NCBI GenBank assembly: GCA_030390025.1
Contig: CM059432.1
Location: 67,148,001 to 67,212,000 of the forward strand
Origin: Squalus acanthias
Lineage: Eukaryota
DNA: 64,000 nt
Direction of reading: 5' to 3'
A program made the position numbers and the translations under genes. Numbering within the stretch: position 1 is the stretch's first letter; each line of letters starts with the position of its first letter. The notes under the pieces are model-generated. The model did not search any database. It had not been told where the DNA came from and saw nothing but the letters and a program-made list of their open reading frames with translations. This document shows positions 29,274-64,000 of the stretch, piece after piece.

Positions 29274-29592
29274 CTAACAAAGACATTAACAGAATCAGTG
29301 CCAAGTCACTTGGCAATCTTGAAACATGAAAGTGTCTGTAATGTTCATAAAAACAGTGAAATGCATTGAAAAACTTCTACAGTGGAATACTGACAAATAT
29401 AACTAGCTTGACGTAAGTAATGGGACATAATTTGCTGCAGAAGTGAATCCAACGGCTTCTGCCATTAGTTAGACATGCCCTTGCACGTTTAGGTTTTTAA
29501 ATTTTTTGCATCGCAAGTTGCTGGAACTGCGATCTGATAATGTCACAACGAGGAAAAACAGGCACCTGGGACCTCAGTGAACAGGGATAACA

Positions 29593-30964
29593 GTGAGAAG
29601 TCGCACAACACCAGGTTATAGTCCAACAGTTTTATTTGAAATCACAAGCTTTCGGAGCGGCTGCTCCTTCGTCAGGTGAAGTAAAGGAATACAAAATCGA
29701 CAAAGCATATATAGATAGAGAACAATGCATGTGTAACTTACAATGGCAGACGACTACATTTAATCCTCCTGACTGTTTATCTGCCGAGGCGTGACAAAAG
29801 GCAATCAGGTCAGCCAGGAAGGCACCACATCAAAGACATAGCAAGATACAACTGAGACAATGAGGTGGGGTTACAGGGGGTCTAATGTGTCAAAAGCTGC
29901 AGTCGGTATGGAAAACGATAAACTTTAAAATTTTTACTTTTTTACTGGGAATCACATCTGAACAATCCAACGACGACTCAAGTCTGGATGACTCTACGTC
30001 ATGTATCGTGACATAAACCCAAGATCCCGGTTGAGGCCGTCCTCATGAGTGCGGAACTTGGCTATCAGTTTCTGCTCGATGATTTTGCGTTGTCGTGTGT
30101 CTCTAAGGCCGCCTTGGAGAACGCTTACCCGCAGATCCGAGGCTGAATGTCCTTGACTGCTGAAGTGTTCCCCAACTGGGAGGTAACAATCCTGCCTGGC
30201 GATTGTTGCGCGGTGTCCATTCATACGTTGTCTCAGTGTCTGCATGGTCTCGCCGATGTACCATGCCGCGGTGCATTCTTTCCTGCAACGTATGAGGTAG
30301 ACAACGTTGGCCGAGTCACATGAGTATGTACCATGTACCTGGTGGGTAGTGTCCTCACGTGTGATGATGGTATCTGTGTTGATGATCTGGCATGTCTTGC
30401 AGAGGTTGCCGGCAAGGTTGTGTGGTGTCGTGGTCGCTGTTATCCTGAAAGCTGGGTAATTTGCTGCGAACGATGGTACTCTGAGGTTAGGCGGCTGTTT
30501 GAAGGCAAGTAGTGGAGGCGTGGGGATGGCCTTAGCGAGGTGTTCGTTGTCATCGATGACATGTTGAAGGCTGCGAAGAACATGGCGTAGTTTCTCCGCT
30601 CCGGGGAAGGACTGGACGACGTAGGGTACCCTGTTGGTTGTGTCCCGTGTTTGCCTTCTGAGGAGGTCTATGCGATTTTTCGCTGTGGCCCGTCGGAACT
30701 GTCGATCGATGAGTCGAGCGTCATATCCCGTTCTTACGAGGCCGTTTTTCAGCGTCCGTAGGTGTCTATCGCGTTCCTCCTCGTCTGAGCAGATCCTGCG
30801 TATTCGCAGGGCTTGTCCATAGGGATGGCTTCTTTAACGTGGTTAGGGTGGAAGCTGGAGAAGCGCCGAAAGCTTGAGATTTCAAATAAAACTGTTGGAC
30901 TATAACCTGGTGTTGTGCGACTTCTCACTTTTGTCCACCCACAGTCCAACACCGGCATCTCCGC
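29593..30964 (-). mobile_element. Penelope-like element family B (Neptune-like), 5'-truncated, with inverted partial pLTR
   Basis: RT thumb, CKTC linker and GIY-YIG C-terminus (QTLRQRMNGHR...VGEHFS...GLNRDLG); 13-bp TSD AACAGGGATAACA at 29580 and 30965; inverted pLTR at 30866-30964. Confidence 0.9.
29642..29679 (-). ncRNA. Minimal hammerhead ribozyme, family B
   Basis: TCAC-CTGACGA-A-GGAGC-agcc-GCTCC-GAAA-GC-TT-GTGA; palindromic AGCT. Confidence 0.8.
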
Positions 30965-31959
30965 AACAGGGATAACAACTGTGTATCTCTAACTAATCAG
31001 ATTGAAGGACTGTGAAATTAACAGCCTAAGGACCGAGAAGGAAGTGTAAATTAGAGTGGGTGAATTCAATGTCAAATCAGGTACAGAAAAAGAGCAAGAT
31101 TGGATTGATGAGAGAAAATATGGACAGAAAGGAAAAGTTTACGTTTAAAATAAAAAGTTGAATCTCTGACAACAATTAAAACCTGAAGGAATGAGGCTTC
31201 ACACTTGTAACGGTTAATTTTCAGTGCCAGAGAGGTTGACTGGCAGCAATTAACACTCATCAGGTCATTAAATGGGTACTTAGACTGAAATGGATGAGAC
31301 TTAACTTTCTGTGGCGAGTTTCGTTCGTGTCCACCACGCAAATAAAGCAACTTTTCGCCATTCAATTCAGTTCAACGGTGAGGCAGACAGAGAGATGCAG
31401 TTTTCGCGAAGCTAACGACTAGGCAGCGCATCTTGGACGGCAACTTTTGGATTTTCGTGTTTAACTGTGCATCTGCCCTCACCTGAAGTTCCTGTACCAT
31501 TTGCGCATAAATAACAGCGAACACCAATAGCTTCAGCGTTATTGTGACAGCAAATTATCACCCAATATATCAGAGAAATATCAAAGCACTTTTTGAAGTC
31601 ATGTTTGTAGGAAATAAATGTTCCACTTATGACTGAAGTACAGATTTTATAAAACTATTTTACAACCAAAGTCCCTGCAATTTAAATAAAAAGTACCAGT
31701 TTATATAGTAACCAGTATTCACAAAGGTATAGTAGCCTTCATGTAAGAGAATAATCTATACACCAGTGAGGAATCGAACCTAATTAAGAAAATAATTGGA
31801 GCACAATTTTAACCCCCCACACGCCTCCAAACCTGCCTCCACGGGTCAATGAAAATCCAGCCCATGGTAATTATCCCAGTGTTCAAAAAACAAGGGTGAT
31901 TTCTGAAGCACTAATCTCTAAGGGAGTCACCAAACACAGAGGGGGAGGGGGGCACAAAT

Positions 31960-52212: not shown

Positions 52213-53344
52213 ATCCATTGCATTCCCTTCATCAATCCTCTGTTACTTCATCAAAAAATTCAATTAGATTAGTCAAACACGATCTGCCTTTTACAAATCC
52301 GTGCTGGCTCTCCTTAATTAGCTTAAACCTCTCCAAATGCCCGTTAATTTTTTCCTTGATTATTGTTTCTAAAACTTTACCCACCACTGATGTTAAACTG
52401 ACTGTAGTTACTAGGATTGTCCTTGCACCCTTTCTTGAACAATGGTGTCACATTTGCCACTTTCCAATCCTCAGGCACCTCCCCCGCATCTAGGAAAGAT
52501 TGGAAAATGATGGCAAGCCCTTCCACTATCTCCTCCCCCAATTCTCTTAGCAACCTGGGATGCAAGCCATCAGGACCAGGCGACTTGTCCACTCGAAGCA
52601 TACCCAGCCTTTCTATCAATTTTCACCCCTTCCATTGCTTCTACCTTTTCCACTTCTACTGATATTTTGTAAGCATCCACCTCCTTAGTAAACACCGATA
52701 CAAAGTACTCATTCAGTATTCTAGCCTTGCCCTGCACCTCTAAGCATATATCACCTTTTCTGTCCCCAATAGGCCCCACCCCACCTCTTAATACCCGCTT
52801 ACTGTTTACATGCCGCTGGAAGATATTTGGGTTCCTTTTTATGTTAACCGCCATTCTACTCTCATATTCTCTCTTTGCCAATCTTATTTTCATCTTCACA
52901 TCTCCTCTCAACTTAGTGTATTTGGTCTGGTTCTCCCGTGAAGAATTCACCTGACGTACACCCTCTTTTTTTGTTTCATCATCTTCTCCATCTCACTCAT
53001 CATCCAAGGAGCCCTTGCTTTGGTTCCCTTATCCTTCCCTCTTGTTGGAATGTACCTAGCCTGTACATGGAACATCTCCTCCTTAAAGATCACCCATTGT
53101 TCCATTACAGTTTTTCCTGTCAGTCTTTGGTTCCATTTTACCCTGGCTAGATCCTTTCGCATCACATTGAAGTTAGCCCTATTCCAGTTTAGAAGTTCCA
53201 CTCTAGACTGTCCCTTGCTCTTCTCCATTGCTAATCTAAATCTTATGATACGATGATCACTCGTACCCAAGTGTTCTCCCAGACACTTGGTCGACCTGGC
53301 CCACCTCATTCCCTAGCACCAGATCCAGCAATGCCTCCTTCCTA

Positions 53345-53553
53345 CGATAGCAAAATACTGCAGATGCTGGAAATCCGAAATAACAACAGAAAACGCTGGA
53401 AAAACTCAGCAGGCGAGGCAGCATCCGTGGAGAGAGAAACAGAGTTAACGTTTCAGGTTCTGACGAAAGGTCATCGACCTGAAACGTTAACTCTGTTTCT
53501 CTCTCCACGGATGCTGCCTCGCCTGCTGAGTTTTTCCAGCGTTTTCTGTTATT
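53345..53553. mobile_element. 209-bp palindromic family A mini-element
   Basis: 14-bp TSD ATGCCTCCTTCCTA (53331, 53554); perfect 74-bp inverted arms 53385-53458 / 53477-53550. Confidence 0.92.
53456..53492 (+). ncRNA. Minimal hammerhead ribozyme, family A
   Basis: GGTT-CTGACGA-A-AGGTC-atc-GACCT-GAAA-CGTT-AACT. Confidence 0.75.
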
Positions 53554-56229
53554 ATGCCTCCTTCCTAGTTGGGCCAAGAACATATTGGTCAAGGAAATTC
53601 TCCCGAACACATTTCAGAAATTCCACCCCCTCCTTTCCCTTTACGCTAGCATTACCCCAATCGATATTTGGGTAATTAAAGTACCCCAATATCACCACTC
53701 TATAGCTCTTGCATATCTCTGCAATTTCCCTGCAGATTTGTTCCTCTACCTCCCGCTCACTATTTGGAGGCCTGCAGAATACCCAAATAGCATGATCATA
53801 CCCTTTTTGCTCTTCTACTCTAACCAAATGGATTCTGTCCTTGTCCCCTCAAGAACTTCCTCCCTTTCCAATACTACAATGTCTTCCTTAATCAGCACTG
53901 CCACCCCACCTCCCTTTTTTCCTTCCCTATCTTTTCTGAACAGCTTGTACCCTTAAATATTAAGTGCCCAGTCCTCACCGTTTTTAAGCCACGTTTCCAT
54001 TATTGCCACAACATCATATTGCCACACAGCTAATTGTGCTTGTAGCTCGCCAACCTTATTCACCACACTTTGTGCGTTTACGCACATGCATTCTAAACCC
54101 TTTTTTGAATTTTTCGTAGTCTTTCTTAGTCTGCTCCTATCTAATATGGTACTACTTCCGCCTCTAGTACTATCCAACATACTCACTCTTTTATGCACCT
54201 TATTCCTCTTTTCTACTCCTATATGCTGGTGCCCATTCCCCTGCCAAGCTAGGTTAAACCCTCCCCAACAGCACTAACAAACCTCCCCGCGAGAATATTG
54301 GTCCCGGCTCTGTTGAGGTGTAACCCGTCCAGCTTGTACAGGTCCCACCTTCCCCAGAAACGGTCCCAATGCCTCAGGAATCTAAATCCCTCCCTCCTGC
54401 ACCATCTCTCCAGCCATGCTTTCATCTGTTCTATCCTCCTATTCCTGTACTCACTAGTACGTGGCACCAGGAGTAATCCGGAGATTATTACCTTTGAGGT
54501 CCTGCTTTTTAATCTCTCTCCTAGCTCCCTAAACTCTGCCTGCAGGACCTCATCACTCTTTCTGCCTATGTCATTGGTACAGATATGGACAACGACCTCT
54601 GGCTGTTCACCCTCCCCCCTCAGAGTGTCCTGCAGCCGCTCAGTGACATCCTTGACCCTGGCACCAGGGAGGCAACATACCATCCTGGAGTCACGTCTAT
54701 GGCCGCAGAAACACCTGTCTGCTCCCCTAACTATCGAATCCCCTACCACTATTGCTCTTCCACTCTTTCCTCCCTTGCTGTGCAGCTGAGTCACCCGTGG
54801 TGCTGTGGACTTGACTCTGGCTGCACTCCCCAGAGGAACCATCGCCCTCAGCAGTACTCATAACGGAATACTGGTTGGAGAGCACGATGCACTCCGGGGA
54901 CTCCTGCACTACCTGCCTGGTCCCCCTCTTCCGTCTGGCGGTCACCCATTCCCTTTCTGCCTGCATACTCTTAAGCTGCGGGGTGACCACCTCTAGAAAC
55001 GTGCTATCCACATAACTTTCAGCCTCGCGGATGCACTGCAGTGACTCCAGCCGCCGCTCAAGCTCCGAAACCCGGAGCTCGAGTTGCTGTAGCTGGCGAC
55101 ACTTCCCGCACATGTGGTTGTCCAGGCTACTTGAAGCGTCCAGGACTTCACACGTGGCACAAGATGTGCACTCCACGGGACTGAGCTGCCCTGCCATGCC
55201 TCTGTTTAATAGACAAAGAACTAACCCAGCAGAAATAAACTTAAAACTTAAAAAAAAATACACTCACCAGCTACTCACCAATCAGCTCCTTGTGACAATG
55301 TCACTTTTTTTACTCTGACGTCACTTTCAAAAACTGCCTCTGTTGAGTTGCTGCCGCTCCTTTTAACTGCTCCGCTCTCACTGTGCTCCCTCCAGGTCCG
55401 CTCCTTCCGGTCTCAGGTGCCTGCCGCTCGGGAATGCTCCTTTTAACTGCACCGCTCGCGCTGTGCTCCCTCCGGTCTCAGACTCCTGCCGCTCGGGACT
55501 GCTCCGCTCTTGCAGTGCTCTATCCAGGTGCGCCCCTCCCGGTCTCAGGAGTTAAAAGTTAGTTAAAAAAACTAAAAGCCTTTCAGTCAAAGAAAGAGAC
55601 TTTCAGTTTTCTAATGCATGTAAACAGCATCAGCTTAAGTGCTTGGAATGTTTCCTGCCCTTTATAGTGGATAAAGCACACTGAATTTTTAAAGAAAGAT
55701 TGAAGAGAAAAAAGTTCGCAGAGCAGAGGGTGCAGATGTGGTGTGTGTTCTGCAGGTGACACAATGAAGTCAGGTGTCAAGGGTCAAGTATCACACTGTG
55801 GGTCACAAGGCCCAGGAGGTCAGAGTCAGCCATTATGAACCAACACGAAGTCTGAGGTCAGCTACTATACCAAGAACAAACAGTGCCGGTTGGCGGATCC
55901 CAAAATCAGGTGGCCAGTCACTATACTAAGGAAAACAGTGGAAGGGATTCGGGTAAATCCCAGCCCAAATTCTTATGGGTGGAAACAGAAGTGGGAGGGT
56001 GCAAATGGACAAGAGGATCCCAAGTTACCGTTCTGTCAGGTGAACACCTGAAACTCAGGTCTCAAACACCTGACAAATGAGAAAACATTTGAAAATGGGG
56101 TGGGGGGAAATGGCTGAAGTTGAGACTCAAAATCACATCACTAAAAAACAACTATATAATGGACAGAAATTATATTCCCTTCCATCAGTCAGTAAAATAA
56201 ATTTCAATATCACCAATTGCTAAATCGCA

Positions 56230-60750: not shown

Positions 60751-61658
60751 TTAAGAGACATTGAAAGATAATCAAGGCAAGAGGTGTTAATGTGACAGGT
60801 TGAGGCTAAGTGAAGTGTGAAATGCGCTGGCAGAATGAAGGACAGCTGCCCGCTTCTATGTACACACATAAACAAGTACTTTTAAGCACAGGTTCCTTAA
60901 AATTGTAGGTGGCCTTTAAATTCTAGCATGCTCTGCCAATAGTGCATTAATTTAAAATGTTTTACATCAGGTCAAAAGAAAAAGAGCAGCAGACCCTCTA
61001 GGAGCAACTGATGAGGAAGACAGCAAGTAGTGCCAGGGAGGACCAGAGCCGAAAGACCAAAGAGCTAGTCAGGGAGTACCAAGGAGCGGGCTTCAGATTG
61101 AGAGGCAGAGCAAGATTTCAAGCACAACAATTGTGCCATATTAAACAATTTATCAGTTTTAAAAATACCATCTTTTTTTGCAGGAGGCTCAGAGTGTAGT
61201 GAAGGTAGCTGAGGGATACAAGTTGAAAGGAGTAACAGTGCCACCTAGTGTGTGAAAGCTAACCACTATAGTAAACATGGATAGTTTATATTTAGATTAG
61301 TATTGGTTATGACCAGGTATTACTCGCTTAGGCATGGGAAAGCATTGTAAAATCATGAGGAAGCAAGTGTGGCAACAGAAAATGTAGTCACAAACATTTT
61401 AATATATTACTATTCAATCTCCTGGGAAGCAAGACTAAGTGTTGTCTTCAGGTGAGCCATGGTTAGAGGACAGAGACATAACAGAGCCAGGGCACACAAA
61501 CATAATTCCAATCCCCATCACAGTTTCTTCCTTCTTCATATTTCCATATACATTCCTGTGTCCACATTTATAATGCGGAGATGCCGGTGTTGGACTGGGG
61601 TGGACAAAAGTGAGAAGTCGCACAACACCAGGTTATAGTCCAACAGTTTTATTTGAAA

Positions 61659-61696
61659 TCACAAGCTTTCGGAGCTGCTGCTCCTTCGTCAGGTGA
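61659..61696 (-). ncRNA. Minimal hammerhead ribozyme, family B
   Basis: TCAC-CTGACGA-A-GGAGC-agca-GCTCC-GAAA-GCTT-GTGA on the minus strand. Confidence 0.8.
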
Positions 61697-61906
61697 AGTG
61701 AAGAATACAAATCGGCAAAGCATATATAGACAGAGAACAATGCCTGTGCAGTGTACAATGTCAGACGACTACAGTTAATCTTTCTGACTGCCTTTTATCA
61801 CACCTCGGCAGAGAGACAGTCAGAAAGATTAACTGTAGTCGTCTGACATTGTACGCTGCAGGCATTGTTCTGTCTATATATGCTTTGCCGATTTGTATTC
61901 TTCACT

Positions 61907-61944
61907 TCACCTGACGAAGGAGCAGCAGCTCCGAAAGCTTGTGA
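61907..61944 (+). ncRNA. Minimal hammerhead ribozyme, family B
   Basis: TCAC-CTGACGA-A-GGAGC-agca-GCTCC-GAAA-GCTT-GTGA. Confidence 0.8.
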
Positions 61945-62504
61945 TTTCAAATAAAACTGTTGGACTATAACCTGGTGTTCTGCGACTTCTCACTTTTGTC
62001 CACATTTATAATGGAAACTGTCTATGTAAATAGATCACACTGCATCACTCTCCCGTTAGCAACGGCAACGCATCCACTGGGAGGAGGGTGGGCCAATGTG
62101 CAATTACAGCATCACAAGCTTCATTTGCGGTATCCAGTATAAATGTGATAATAGAAATTTAGAATAGAAACCATAGGGCAGCAGTGCACACAGATGCAAG
62201 ATTTTTTTTAAAAATACAGACAAAATGCTTGCTCAGCAGTTGTATTTTTATAGGCAAACACTATTTTAAAACCTGTGAATGGCTGACAACCTAATATAGT
62301 CATGCAAGATAACTTTAAAAAAAAGTTATTTGGTCCAGTCTATCATTAAAGGGCTTTGAATGTTTTTCTCTGGCTGATTGGCTATGACTAGGTCTATTCT
62401 GAAACCATGAAGGTGATCATGATGGCCACACTATATATCCAGTAAGGCAAAATAAAGTGACAAAGTTTGCTACATTTATCTAGATATTGGGCAAGTAAAG
62501 GCAC

Positions 62505-63865
62505 AAGATATCAAGAGACAACTGAACACACTCGATACAGCAAAGGCGATGGGCCCTGACAACATCCCGGCTGTAGTGCTGAAGACTTGTGCTCCAGAAC
62601 TAGCTGCGCCTCTAGCCATGCTGTTCCAGTACAGCTACAACACTGGCATTTACCTTACATACTGGAAAATTGCCCAGGTATGTGCTGTCCACAAAAAACA
62701 GGACAAATCCAATCCGGCCAATTACCGCCCCATCAGTCTACTCTCAATCATCAGCAAAGTGATGGAAGGTGTCATCAGCAGTGCGATCAAGCAGCACTTG
62801 TTCACCAATAACCTGCTCACCAATGGGTCCTGACAGAACCCATTCGGCTCCAGACCTCATTACAGCCTTGGTCCAAACATGGACAAAAGAGCTGAATTCT
62901 AGAGGTGAGGCAAGAGTAACTGCCCTCGACATCAAGGCAGCATTTGACCAAGTGTGGCATCAAGGAGCCCTAGTAAAATTGAAGTCAATGGGAATCAGGG
63001 GAAAATTCTCCACTGGCTTGAGTTATACACAGCACAAAGGATGATGATTGTGATTGTTGGAGGTCAATCATCTCAGCCCCAGGACATCGCTGCAGGAGTT
63101 CCTCAGGGCAGTATCCAAGGCCCAACCATCTTCAGCTGCTTCATCAATGACCTTCCCTCCATCACAAGGTCAGAAGTGGCTATGTTCGCTGATGACTGCA
63201 GTGTTCAGTTCCATTTGCAACTCCTCAGATAATGAAGCAGCCCTGGACAATATTCAGACTTGGCCTGATAAGTGGCAAGTAACATTCTCGCCACACAAAT
63301 GCCAGGCAATGACCAACTCCAACAAGAGAGTGTCTAACCACCTCCCCTCGACATTCAACGGCATTACCATCACTGAATCCCCCATCAACATCCTGGGGGG
63401 TCACCATTGACCAGAAACTTAATTGGACCAGCCACATAAATACTGTGGCTACAAGAGCGGGTCAGAGGCTGGGTATTCTGTGGCAAGTGACTCACCTCCT
63501 GACTCCCCAAAGTCTTTCCACCACCTACAAGGCACAAGTCAGGAGTGTGATGGAATACTCTCCACTTGCCGCAACTTCTGCCACCTAGGTCAATAGCAGC
63601 CGCTGCACGGGAACGCCACCACCGCCAAGTTCCCCTCCAAGTCACACACCACCCTGACTTGGAAATGTATTGCCGCTCCTTCACAGTCAGTCAAAATCCA
63701 GGAACTCCCTACTTAACAGCACCGTGGGAGACCTTCACCACCACATGGACTGCAGCGGTTCGAGGAGGCGGCTCACCACCACGTTTACAAGGGCAATTAG
63801 GGATGGGCAATAAATGCTGGCTTTGCCAGCAATGCTCACATCCCGTCAATGAATTAAAAAAAATT
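62505..63865 (+). mobile_element. Second CR1-group LINE family (RT to 3' end)
   Basis: MGPDNIPAVVLKTCAPELA, ALDIKAAFD, MFADD; tail gggcaataaatgctggc...polyA. Confidence 0.92.
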
Positions 63866-64000
63866 ACAAGTGCAGACACCTCTACTTTTTTTTAAAATTT
63901 TAAACCTAAACCACACATGATTTCTAGTTGTTCAGCCAACGGTACGTCAAATGTGCAAGTGAGACTGTGAATACGAGCCATCTTAACTACTAGTGACTGA

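What the first reader, a model, noticed from the sequence alone, without database searches (positions are those of the whole stretch)
61559..62013. ~430-bp palindromic element with a hammerhead on each strand
Seen: ~190-bp near-perfect inverted arms around a 26-nt spacer, no ORF, and identical intact family B hammerheads in both arms. It is flanked by the 17-nt direct repeat TGTCCACATTTATAATG, whose first 7 nt also match the element end (microhomology). It parallels the family A hairpin at 53345 in an unrelated PLE family. Inference: a general route by which PLEs generate MITE-like ribozyme hairpins that carry a ribozyme whichever strand is transcribed.
Basis: partly seen in the sequence, partly recalled or inferred. 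Interest (0 to 1): 0.7.

Follow-up and report, generated by a model that had tools for sequence, protein, structure and literature searches.

The report
Mirror-image Penelope stub at folding hotspot
This 430-base palindrome is two short head-to-head copies of the ribozyme-bearing end of a common Penelope-type jumping gene, a known kind of insertion; dozens of look-alikes share its middle junction, likely because each was built anew at the same natural RNA hairpin rather than spreading as a unit, and its ribozymes are predicted to be locked inactive in the long hairpin.

Summary
The palindrome, both hammerhead cores and the 17-nt target duplication are real. A related species has the empty site (one contig). 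The element is the short end of a continuous series (0.4-5.3 kb) of head-to-head insertions of a Neptune-like Penelope-like element (PLE). Its 26-nt loop junction recurs in 12 of 38 short palindromes, and in 21 of 27 in a sister subfamily. These are not one MITE-like clade: AU p=0.0002, many arm haplotypes, and the tail falls on either arm. The loop is parental sequence inside a 3'-UTR stem-loop, a likely join hotspot, and the same loop also occurs flipped in parent-type copies. Of 72 double-armed insertions, 67 have one tailed and one tailless arm, which fits two primings at the PLE's two start sites (inferred). On either strand the hammerhead lies in the downstream arm, and folding it costs about 67 kcal/mol, so read-through RNA is predicted not to cleave. 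The layout is published, and the scan reported it before on other DNA (64 notes). The hotspot and the loop flip were not found in my searches.

The parts
61559..61575 (.). Left copy of 17-nt target-site duplication; last 3 nt shared with the element's tail end
   Evidence: empty site in organism C contig
61573..61599 (-). PLE 'tail' present only on the left arm; ends just short of the parent's ORF start codon
   Evidence: end at -1 relative to ATG; ORF follows the tail in L114
61600..61793 (-). Left arm: 3' end of the PLE (pLTR/3' UTR), sense on the minus strand; the parental loop continues from this arm
61659..61696 (-). Minimal type I hammerhead motif, minus strand
   Evidence: anatomy compared with PMC4209133
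61791..61816 (.). 26-nt loop: parental 3'-UTR sequence inside an imperfect stem-loop; recurrent junction
61814..62003 (+). Right arm: inverted, tailless copy of the same PLE end; stops 28 nt before the ATG position with 7-nt microhomology
61875..61882 (+). TATA-like motif about 30 nt upstream of the hammerhead (mirror copy at 61723); promoter activity untested
   Evidence: sequence only
61907..61944 (+). Minimal type I hammerhead motif, plus strand: helix I 4 bp, core CUGACGA, extra A, helix II 5 bp, GAAA-GC-UU; predicted cut after 61940
61997..62013 (.). Right copy of the target-site duplication; first 7 nt shared with the element end

Best explanation
This is a single, short head-to-head insertion of the hammerhead-bearing end of a Penelope-like retrotransposon, likely made when the element's enzyme cut both target strands, primed one DNA copy from each cut at its two start sites about 36 nt apart on what was likely the same RNA, and the two copies were likely joined at a natural stem-loop in the 3' UTR. 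Shown: PLE origin, target duplication, one tailed plus one tailless arm, the recurrent junction, several arm haplotypes, and both polarities. Inferred: staggered nicks, twin priming on one RNA, stalling and microhomology joining at the hairpin. The product is probably dead on arrival: read-through RNA from either strand is predicted to zip into a ~190-bp duplex that buries the ribozyme.
For: Parent copies carry RT (Pfam RVT_1, E 2.5e-8 to 3e-5; 1 of 3 above the curated cut-off) plus a C-terminal GIY-YIG-like stretch and a CX4CxxC linker. The arm 17-mer has 2,593 exact hits. Of 72 double-armed loci, 67 have one tail and one tailless end; 3 had none, 1 both, 1 was unparsed. The tailed arm is longer in 27, the tailless in 31, and they are equal in 9. 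Ends cluster near +2 and -36 relative to the ATG, TSDs are 11-15 nt in 45 of 51, and microhomology exceeds a shuffle null at both ends (>=3 nt: 41% vs 10% tailless, 25% vs 6% tail). Single-armed insertions with TSDs start at either site (4 tail, 6 tailless among 80 rows that include duplicates). Arms within an element differ at 4.0 of 155 columns vs 8.65 between elements, and 15 private variants are shared by both arms (63 elements). The loop is parental. The site is among the lowest 0.7% of 46-nt sense-RNA windows in 1.4 kb. Monophyly of the 15 same-junction copies is rejected, p-AU 0.0002, with 12 changes vs 13.5 shuffled. L104 has arms from two subfamilies inside one TSD (n=1). In vitro, a PLE protein nicks and extends both strands, is predicted to be a dimer, and starts RT at two sites that bound the tail (PMC11167929, main text read).
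Against: Nothing was assayed. Recombination between the arms after or during insertion could also flip the centre and homogenise the arms. The arm alignment is only 152 columns, and conversion among copies can blur the tree. The own partner arm is nearest in only 31 of 63 elements, and 80 private variants are on one arm only. The hairpin is unremarkable as single-stranded cDNA (27% of windows fold as well), the best-scoring inverted match at the site is in a different register from the observed junction, and other RNA hairpins of similar strength were not tested as hotspots. The in vitro data come from a Poseidon-clade element, not this clade. Longer loci were picked from the listed rows on contig C1 only.
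Confidence: 0.62

Rival explanations
1. Single priming at the tail, fold-back self-priming of the cDNA at the hairpin, a programmed stop about 36 nt short of the start, and later or concurrent inversion of the centre by recombination between the arms.
For: Arms share private variants. Arm lengths are often nearly equal. Microhomology is higher at the tailless end. L104 contains a short fold-back-like copy. Self-priming was proposed for palindromic PLE junctions (PMC3846280, passages).
Against: Without flipping it predicts a longer tailed arm every time, yet the tailless arm is longer in 31 of 67, at times by 500-850 nt (also the copy at window 29585). Tailless single-armed insertions exist. 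It needs near-equilibrium flipping in copies only a few percent diverged.
Confidence: 0.22
2. The palindromes are a self-propagating, MITE-like non-autonomous family: master hairpins are transcribed from either strand and re-inserted by the PLE protein.
For: Identical junction in 12 of 38 and 21 of 27 loci. A few pairs share haplotype and polarity (L010/L011; L141/L145).
Against: Monophyly is rejected. Haplotypes are shared with kilobase-long insertions. Copying a master would keep tail polarity, yet both occur (10:5; 11:7 among the 18 of 20 sister loci fully parsed). The loop is plain parental sequence. Exact-pattern copy numbers are in the tens against thousands of parent arms. A 190-bp duplex is likely a poor RT template (inference).
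Confidence: 0.08
3. The hotspot arises because the enzyme carries two RNAs, one from a flip and one from a flop parent, whose cDNAs are complementary across the loop.
For: Both loop orientations are abundant. L104 has two-subfamily arms.
Against: The two arms of same-junction palindromes mostly share one haplotype and private variants. Flipped parents are rare in this subfamily (49 hits including palindromes vs 2,593).
Confidence: 0.05
4. Assembly or library fold-back artefact.
For: No single contig in the runs laid spans the element, as expected for short-word contigs over a repeat.
Against: The arms differ by 3 substitutions and 2 indels. There is a TSD. An orthologous empty site exists. The same junction occurs at many loci with their own flanks.
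Confidence: 0.02

Closest known systems
Complex insertions of endonuclease-bearing Penelope-like elements: inverted 5'-truncated copy, 30-40-bp tail on one end, TSD (PMC8557442, PMC3846280, PMC2377424; passages read)
   Same: Head-to-head inverted PLE ends, tail on one end only, a TSD of 17 nt here and mostly 11-15 nt in relatives, palindromic junction.
   Different: The extreme short case with no ORF left. The junction recurs at one stem-loop whose loop also flips; that was not seen in the passages read.
Minimal PLE hammerheads, min-HHR (PMC4209133; parts 1-2 of 4 read)
   Same: Type I topology, 4-bp helix I, extra nucleotide before helix II, G10.1-C11.1 pair, palindromic AGCU in place of helix III. 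The paper already notes dual min-HHRs 100-700 bp apart on opposite strands.
   Different: Helix II is 5 bp rather than the 7-8 bp given for Schistosoma, and the cleavage triplet is CUU. The two copies are on opposite strands, so they cannot form the usual same-strand dimer.
Poseidon element PAc of Anolis in vitro (PMC11167929; main text read, supplements not seen)
   Same: Two end classes that bound the tail, AT-rich targets, hammerhead in the pLTR.
   Different: The parent here is Neptune-like and its ORF starts right after the tail. Genomic ends here show more microhomology than a null, whereas PAc initiation was reported as non-homologous.
MITEs and non-LTR retrozymes (PMC8969392; bioRxiv 10.64898/2026.07.22.740005; passages read)
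   Same: Short, non-coding, multi-copy; inverted repeats (MITE) or a PLE-type hammerhead (retrozyme).
   Different: No DDE-transposase parent and no homogeneous clade. It is head-to-head, not a tandem head-to-tail array.
L1 twin priming and quasi-palindrome template switching (recalled, no call read them)
   Same: Two primings give an inverted 5' part; a strand switch at an imperfect hairpin perfects the stem or inverts the loop.
   Different: Both primings appear to start at the element's 3' terminus rather than one internally.

Membership tests
EN+ Penelope-like element insertion | Parent ORF with RT followed by a C-terminal GIY-YIG nuclease with two Cys inside the motif | tested here: met
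   RVT_1 hits; motif read by eye in L116 translation; Pfam gave no GIY-YIG hit
EN+ Penelope-like element insertion | 3'-anchored, 5'-truncated copies with an inverted copy adjoining | tested here: met
EN+ Penelope-like element insertion | 30-40-nt tail on one end | tested here: met
   67 of 72 loci; end classes ~36-38 nt apart in the family, 27 nt at this locus
EN+ Penelope-like element insertion | Target-site duplication | tested here: met
Neptune clade | CX2-5CxxC linker between RT and EN (shared with Nematis) | tested here: met
   vs PMC8557442 passages
Neptune clade | Placement in an RT phylogeny | not tested
   no reference RT set fetched
Minimal type I hammerhead | Conserved core, helices I and II, palindromic 15.2/16.2 | tested here: met
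   Rfam has no matching hit; the isolated motif folds no better than shuffles (z -0.7)
Minimal type I hammerhead | Self-cleavage | not testable with these tools
   predicted blocked in read-through RNA
MITE | Homogeneous family amplified from a master copy | tested here: not met
   AU p=0.0002, 12 changes vs 13.5 shuffled
MITE | TIRs shared with a DDE transposase parent | tested here: not met
   the parent with these ends encodes an RT
Non-LTR retrozyme | Tandem head-to-tail units with same-strand hammerheads | tested here: not met
   single head-to-head pair

The most novel reading that the evidence does not exclude
Penelope-like elements build their inverted ends by double priming, one cDNA from each target nick at two fixed start sites on one RNA, and a 3'-UTR stem-loop steers where the two cDNAs join. 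The same strand switch repeatedly flips the 26-nt loop in otherwise normal copies and has founded a subfamily of over a thousand loop-flipped elements. This would explain the one-sided tail and the inverted pLTR, and gives a one-hairpin test of the mechanism.
Probability: 0.5. Interest if true: 0.55.

Novelty: new member of a known kind. Interest (0 to 1): 0.3.

Why it matters
As an element it is an ordinary, probably inert retrotransposon stub. Its value is as a record of mechanism: how PLEs make inverted repeats and a one-sided tail is still called undefined in PMC8557442. The strict tail/tailless pairing, the recurrent junction at a defined hairpin and the loop flip give concrete predictions for the existing in vitro PLE system. 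It also warns repeat annotators that identical-junction hairpins can arise repeatedly without being a MITE family. Such stubs, if transcribed, are predicted sources of ~190-bp dsRNA (untested).

Tried and rejected
Rfam scan of the window: no hammerhead family hit, only chance miRNA-hairpin matches. RNA evidence: no RNA holder was listed. Four runs guessed to be RNA gave family-level cover of the arms, only short low-depth pieces on the left flank, and no piece across the locus junctions, so nothing can be said on expression. In DNA runs the left junction is crossed by only about 20-27 nt (X1, X3, X5), below the tool's 31-letter bridging rule, and the right junction is not crossed. I first read the flipped loop as the parent of this subfamily from the copy at window 29585; one search showed that copy belongs to a sister subfamily. 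I first took both tail polarities as proof that a palindromic master is copied from either strand (note), then rejected this because copying a master keeps polarity and because long insertions show the same pattern. The two-RNA flip/flop idea was tested on 20 of 21 sister-subfamily loci and was not supported; flop-parent arms were not captured by that script. No separate count was obtained for flip vs flop restricted to the sister arm type. Literature searches found no paper describing PLE twin priming, a junction hotspot or a loop flip; the library lacks most subscription papers and Repbase. A word search of the scan's notes for hotspot/flip gave 0. The host-gene context of the site was not examined. 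The label 'shark' is recalled from the look of the repeats and from earlier notes, and comes from no test here.

Full report
Observation. The element lies between two exact 17-nt repeats (61559-61575, 61997-62013). Its arms (61600-61793, 61814-62003) align over 194 columns with 3 mismatches and two 2-nt gaps. They fold to -355.7 kcal/mol against a shuffle mean of -115. Each arm holds an identical minimal hammerhead motif with the anatomy given in PMC4209133. The left arm has an extra end of about 27 nt. No ORF over 59 aa overlaps it. One contig of a related organism (run X8, record 25) joins 61572 directly to 62010, removing 437 nt, within 1 nt of element plus one repeat. The repeat is therefore a target duplication, and the insertion postdates that split (flanks differ at 35 letters and 15 gaps in about 960 nt). 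This rests on one contig, and no record spans the filled site.

Parent. The window lies on contig C8 of a 3.7-Gb genome. A 17-mer of the arm has 2,593 exact hits. Long copies carry an RT (1 of 3 above Pfam's cut-off) followed by a CX4CxxC linker and a GIY-YIG-like stretch with two internal cysteines. By PMC8557442 that points to Neptune or Nematis. Neptune and Poseidon are the clades reported in vertebrates, so Neptune is likely; no RT tree was built. In the full-length copy L114 the ORF begins immediately after the tail.

A continuum. I examined 41 short palindromes and 31 longer inverted insertions, the latter picked from listed rows on contig C1. Lengths run from about 0.35 to 5.3 kb, and nearly all are two 3'-anchored copies joined head to head. 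In 67 of 72 there is exactly one tailed and one tailless arm (3 none, 1 both, 1 unparsed). The tailed arm is longer in 27, the tailless in 31, and they are equal in 9. In 51 of 66 loci where a TSD could be called (8 skipped, 7 without an exact TSD), 45 TSDs are 11-15 nt and the TSDs are 72% AT overall. Ends cluster near +2 and -36 relative to the ATG. Microhomology exceeds a simple null at both ends. The finding's 17-nt TSD and 7-nt overlap are at the upper extreme, not typical. Single-armed insertions with TSDs begin at either site (4 and 6 among 80 rows with duplicates).

The junction. The 26-nt loop is unaltered parent sequence between CTGACTG and CAATCAG. In the palindromes the downstream half reads CAGTCAG because it is copied from the other arm. 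Of 38 loci with a short loop at this site, 12 share this junction and 26 have others, some with templated-looking inserts; three of the 38 are identical copies on one contig. In a sister subfamily 21 of 27 share the register, in at least four loop variants. The site is among the lowest 0.7% of 46-nt windows in the sense RNA but is ordinary as single-stranded DNA, and the best-scoring inverted match is in another register. The hotspot is thus shown, and its cause is inferred.

Not a MITE clade. The 15 same-junction copies (12 above plus 3) carry several arm haplotypes, most shared with longer insertions or other junction types. On a 62-row tree (one arm per element, 152 columns; L104, L119 and 7 rows that failed trimming left out) they need 12 changes vs 13.5 shuffled, and monophyly is rejected at p-AU 0.0002. 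Support on this tree is weak, and conversion could blur it. The tail sits on the loop-continuing arm in 10 and on the other arm in 5, and 11 vs 7 in the sister set (18 of 20 parsed). Copying a master would keep polarity. Limited propagation of a few copies is not excluded.

Mechanism. Arms of one insertion are closer than arms of different ones (4.0 vs 8.65 differences; 15 private variants on both arms, 80 on one), which suggests one template or later homogenisation. A single cDNA folding back cannot put the tail on the shorter arm. Two primings, one per nick, at the two start sites can. This matches PMC11167929, where a PLE protein nicks and extends both strands, is predicted dimeric, and starts at two sites bounding the tail. 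L104 holds arms of two subfamilies within one 12-nt TSD (one case). The main rival is fold-back plus recombinational flipping of the centre.

Loop flip. The same loop occurs inverted between unchanged stems in parent-type copies: at least 1,441 exact hits vs at least 1,973 in the other orientation. In this element's own subfamily 49 hits show the flipped loop; of the first 25, 18 continue into the parent in several haplotypes and 7 are palindromes. This suggests recurrent micro-inversion at the same breakpoints as the palindrome junction (inference).

Ribozyme. On both strands the hammerhead is in the second arm transcribed. Forcing its fold costs 67.5 kcal/mol, and helix II probability is 0 in full and nascent read-through RNA but 0.93-0.98 if the RNA starts just before it. 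Single minimal hammerheads did not cleave in PMC4209133, and the PAc one needed protein (PMC11167929). The family A hairpin has the same one-sided layout by eye and a 14-nt TSD (53331-53344, 53554-53567) but only one full core.

Comparison and verdict. The layout is described (PMC8557442, PMC3846280, PMC2377424, PMC8969392; passages), and opposite-strand hammerhead pairs 100-700 bp apart were noted in PMC4209133. Earlier scan notes report the same kind of element 64 times in at least 10 genomes, several with a twin-priming reading; my reading was recorded before seeing them, and they are not independent support. I found no paper or note on the junction hotspot or the loop flip. Supplements of the papers were not seen. 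Verdict: a new member of a known kind, interest 0.3.

Noticed in passing
G000 genome-wide; window 29770-29810; L161-L185: The 26-nt 3'-UTR loop exists in both orientations between the same stems in parent-type copies (>=1,973 vs >=1,441 exact hits), and flips recur in several haplotypes.
   Followed up: partly
L104:405-1270 (G000:C22:9793350-9794650): One 12-nt TSD encloses a tailed arm with a short mirrored copy from one subfamily and a tailless arm from another subfamily.
   Followed up: partly
window 29577-30977: A 1.4-kb sister-subfamily insertion with a long tailless arm (ORF remnant on the minus strand), a ~115-nt inverted tailed arm and a ~13-nt TSD.
   Followed up: partly
window 53331-53567: Family A hairpin with a 14-nt TSD, one longer arm end, and its fold point inside hammerhead helix II, leaving only one complete core.
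   Followed up: partly
G000:C1:161619988 and 161620700: From listed rows, an apparent inverted insertion with the loop in one orientation on one arm and flipped on the other; not fetched.
   Followed up: no
L041, L054, L115, L125, L126, L127, L136, L137: In many long double-armed insertions the two arms end within about 2-80 nt of each other on the parent, as if both copies stopped at the same place.
   Followed up: no
G000:C3652:757490, 775714, 832972: Three identical palindrome junctions on one small contig, probably a segmental duplication.
   Followed up: no
window 62505-63870: A decayed LINE-like RT remnant (identity recalled, not tested) with inverted relatives elsewhere in the window.
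   Followed up: no
window 61997-62030: The target site itself matches another repeated sequence (over 90 contigs per run share one loose end after 62030).
   Followed up: no
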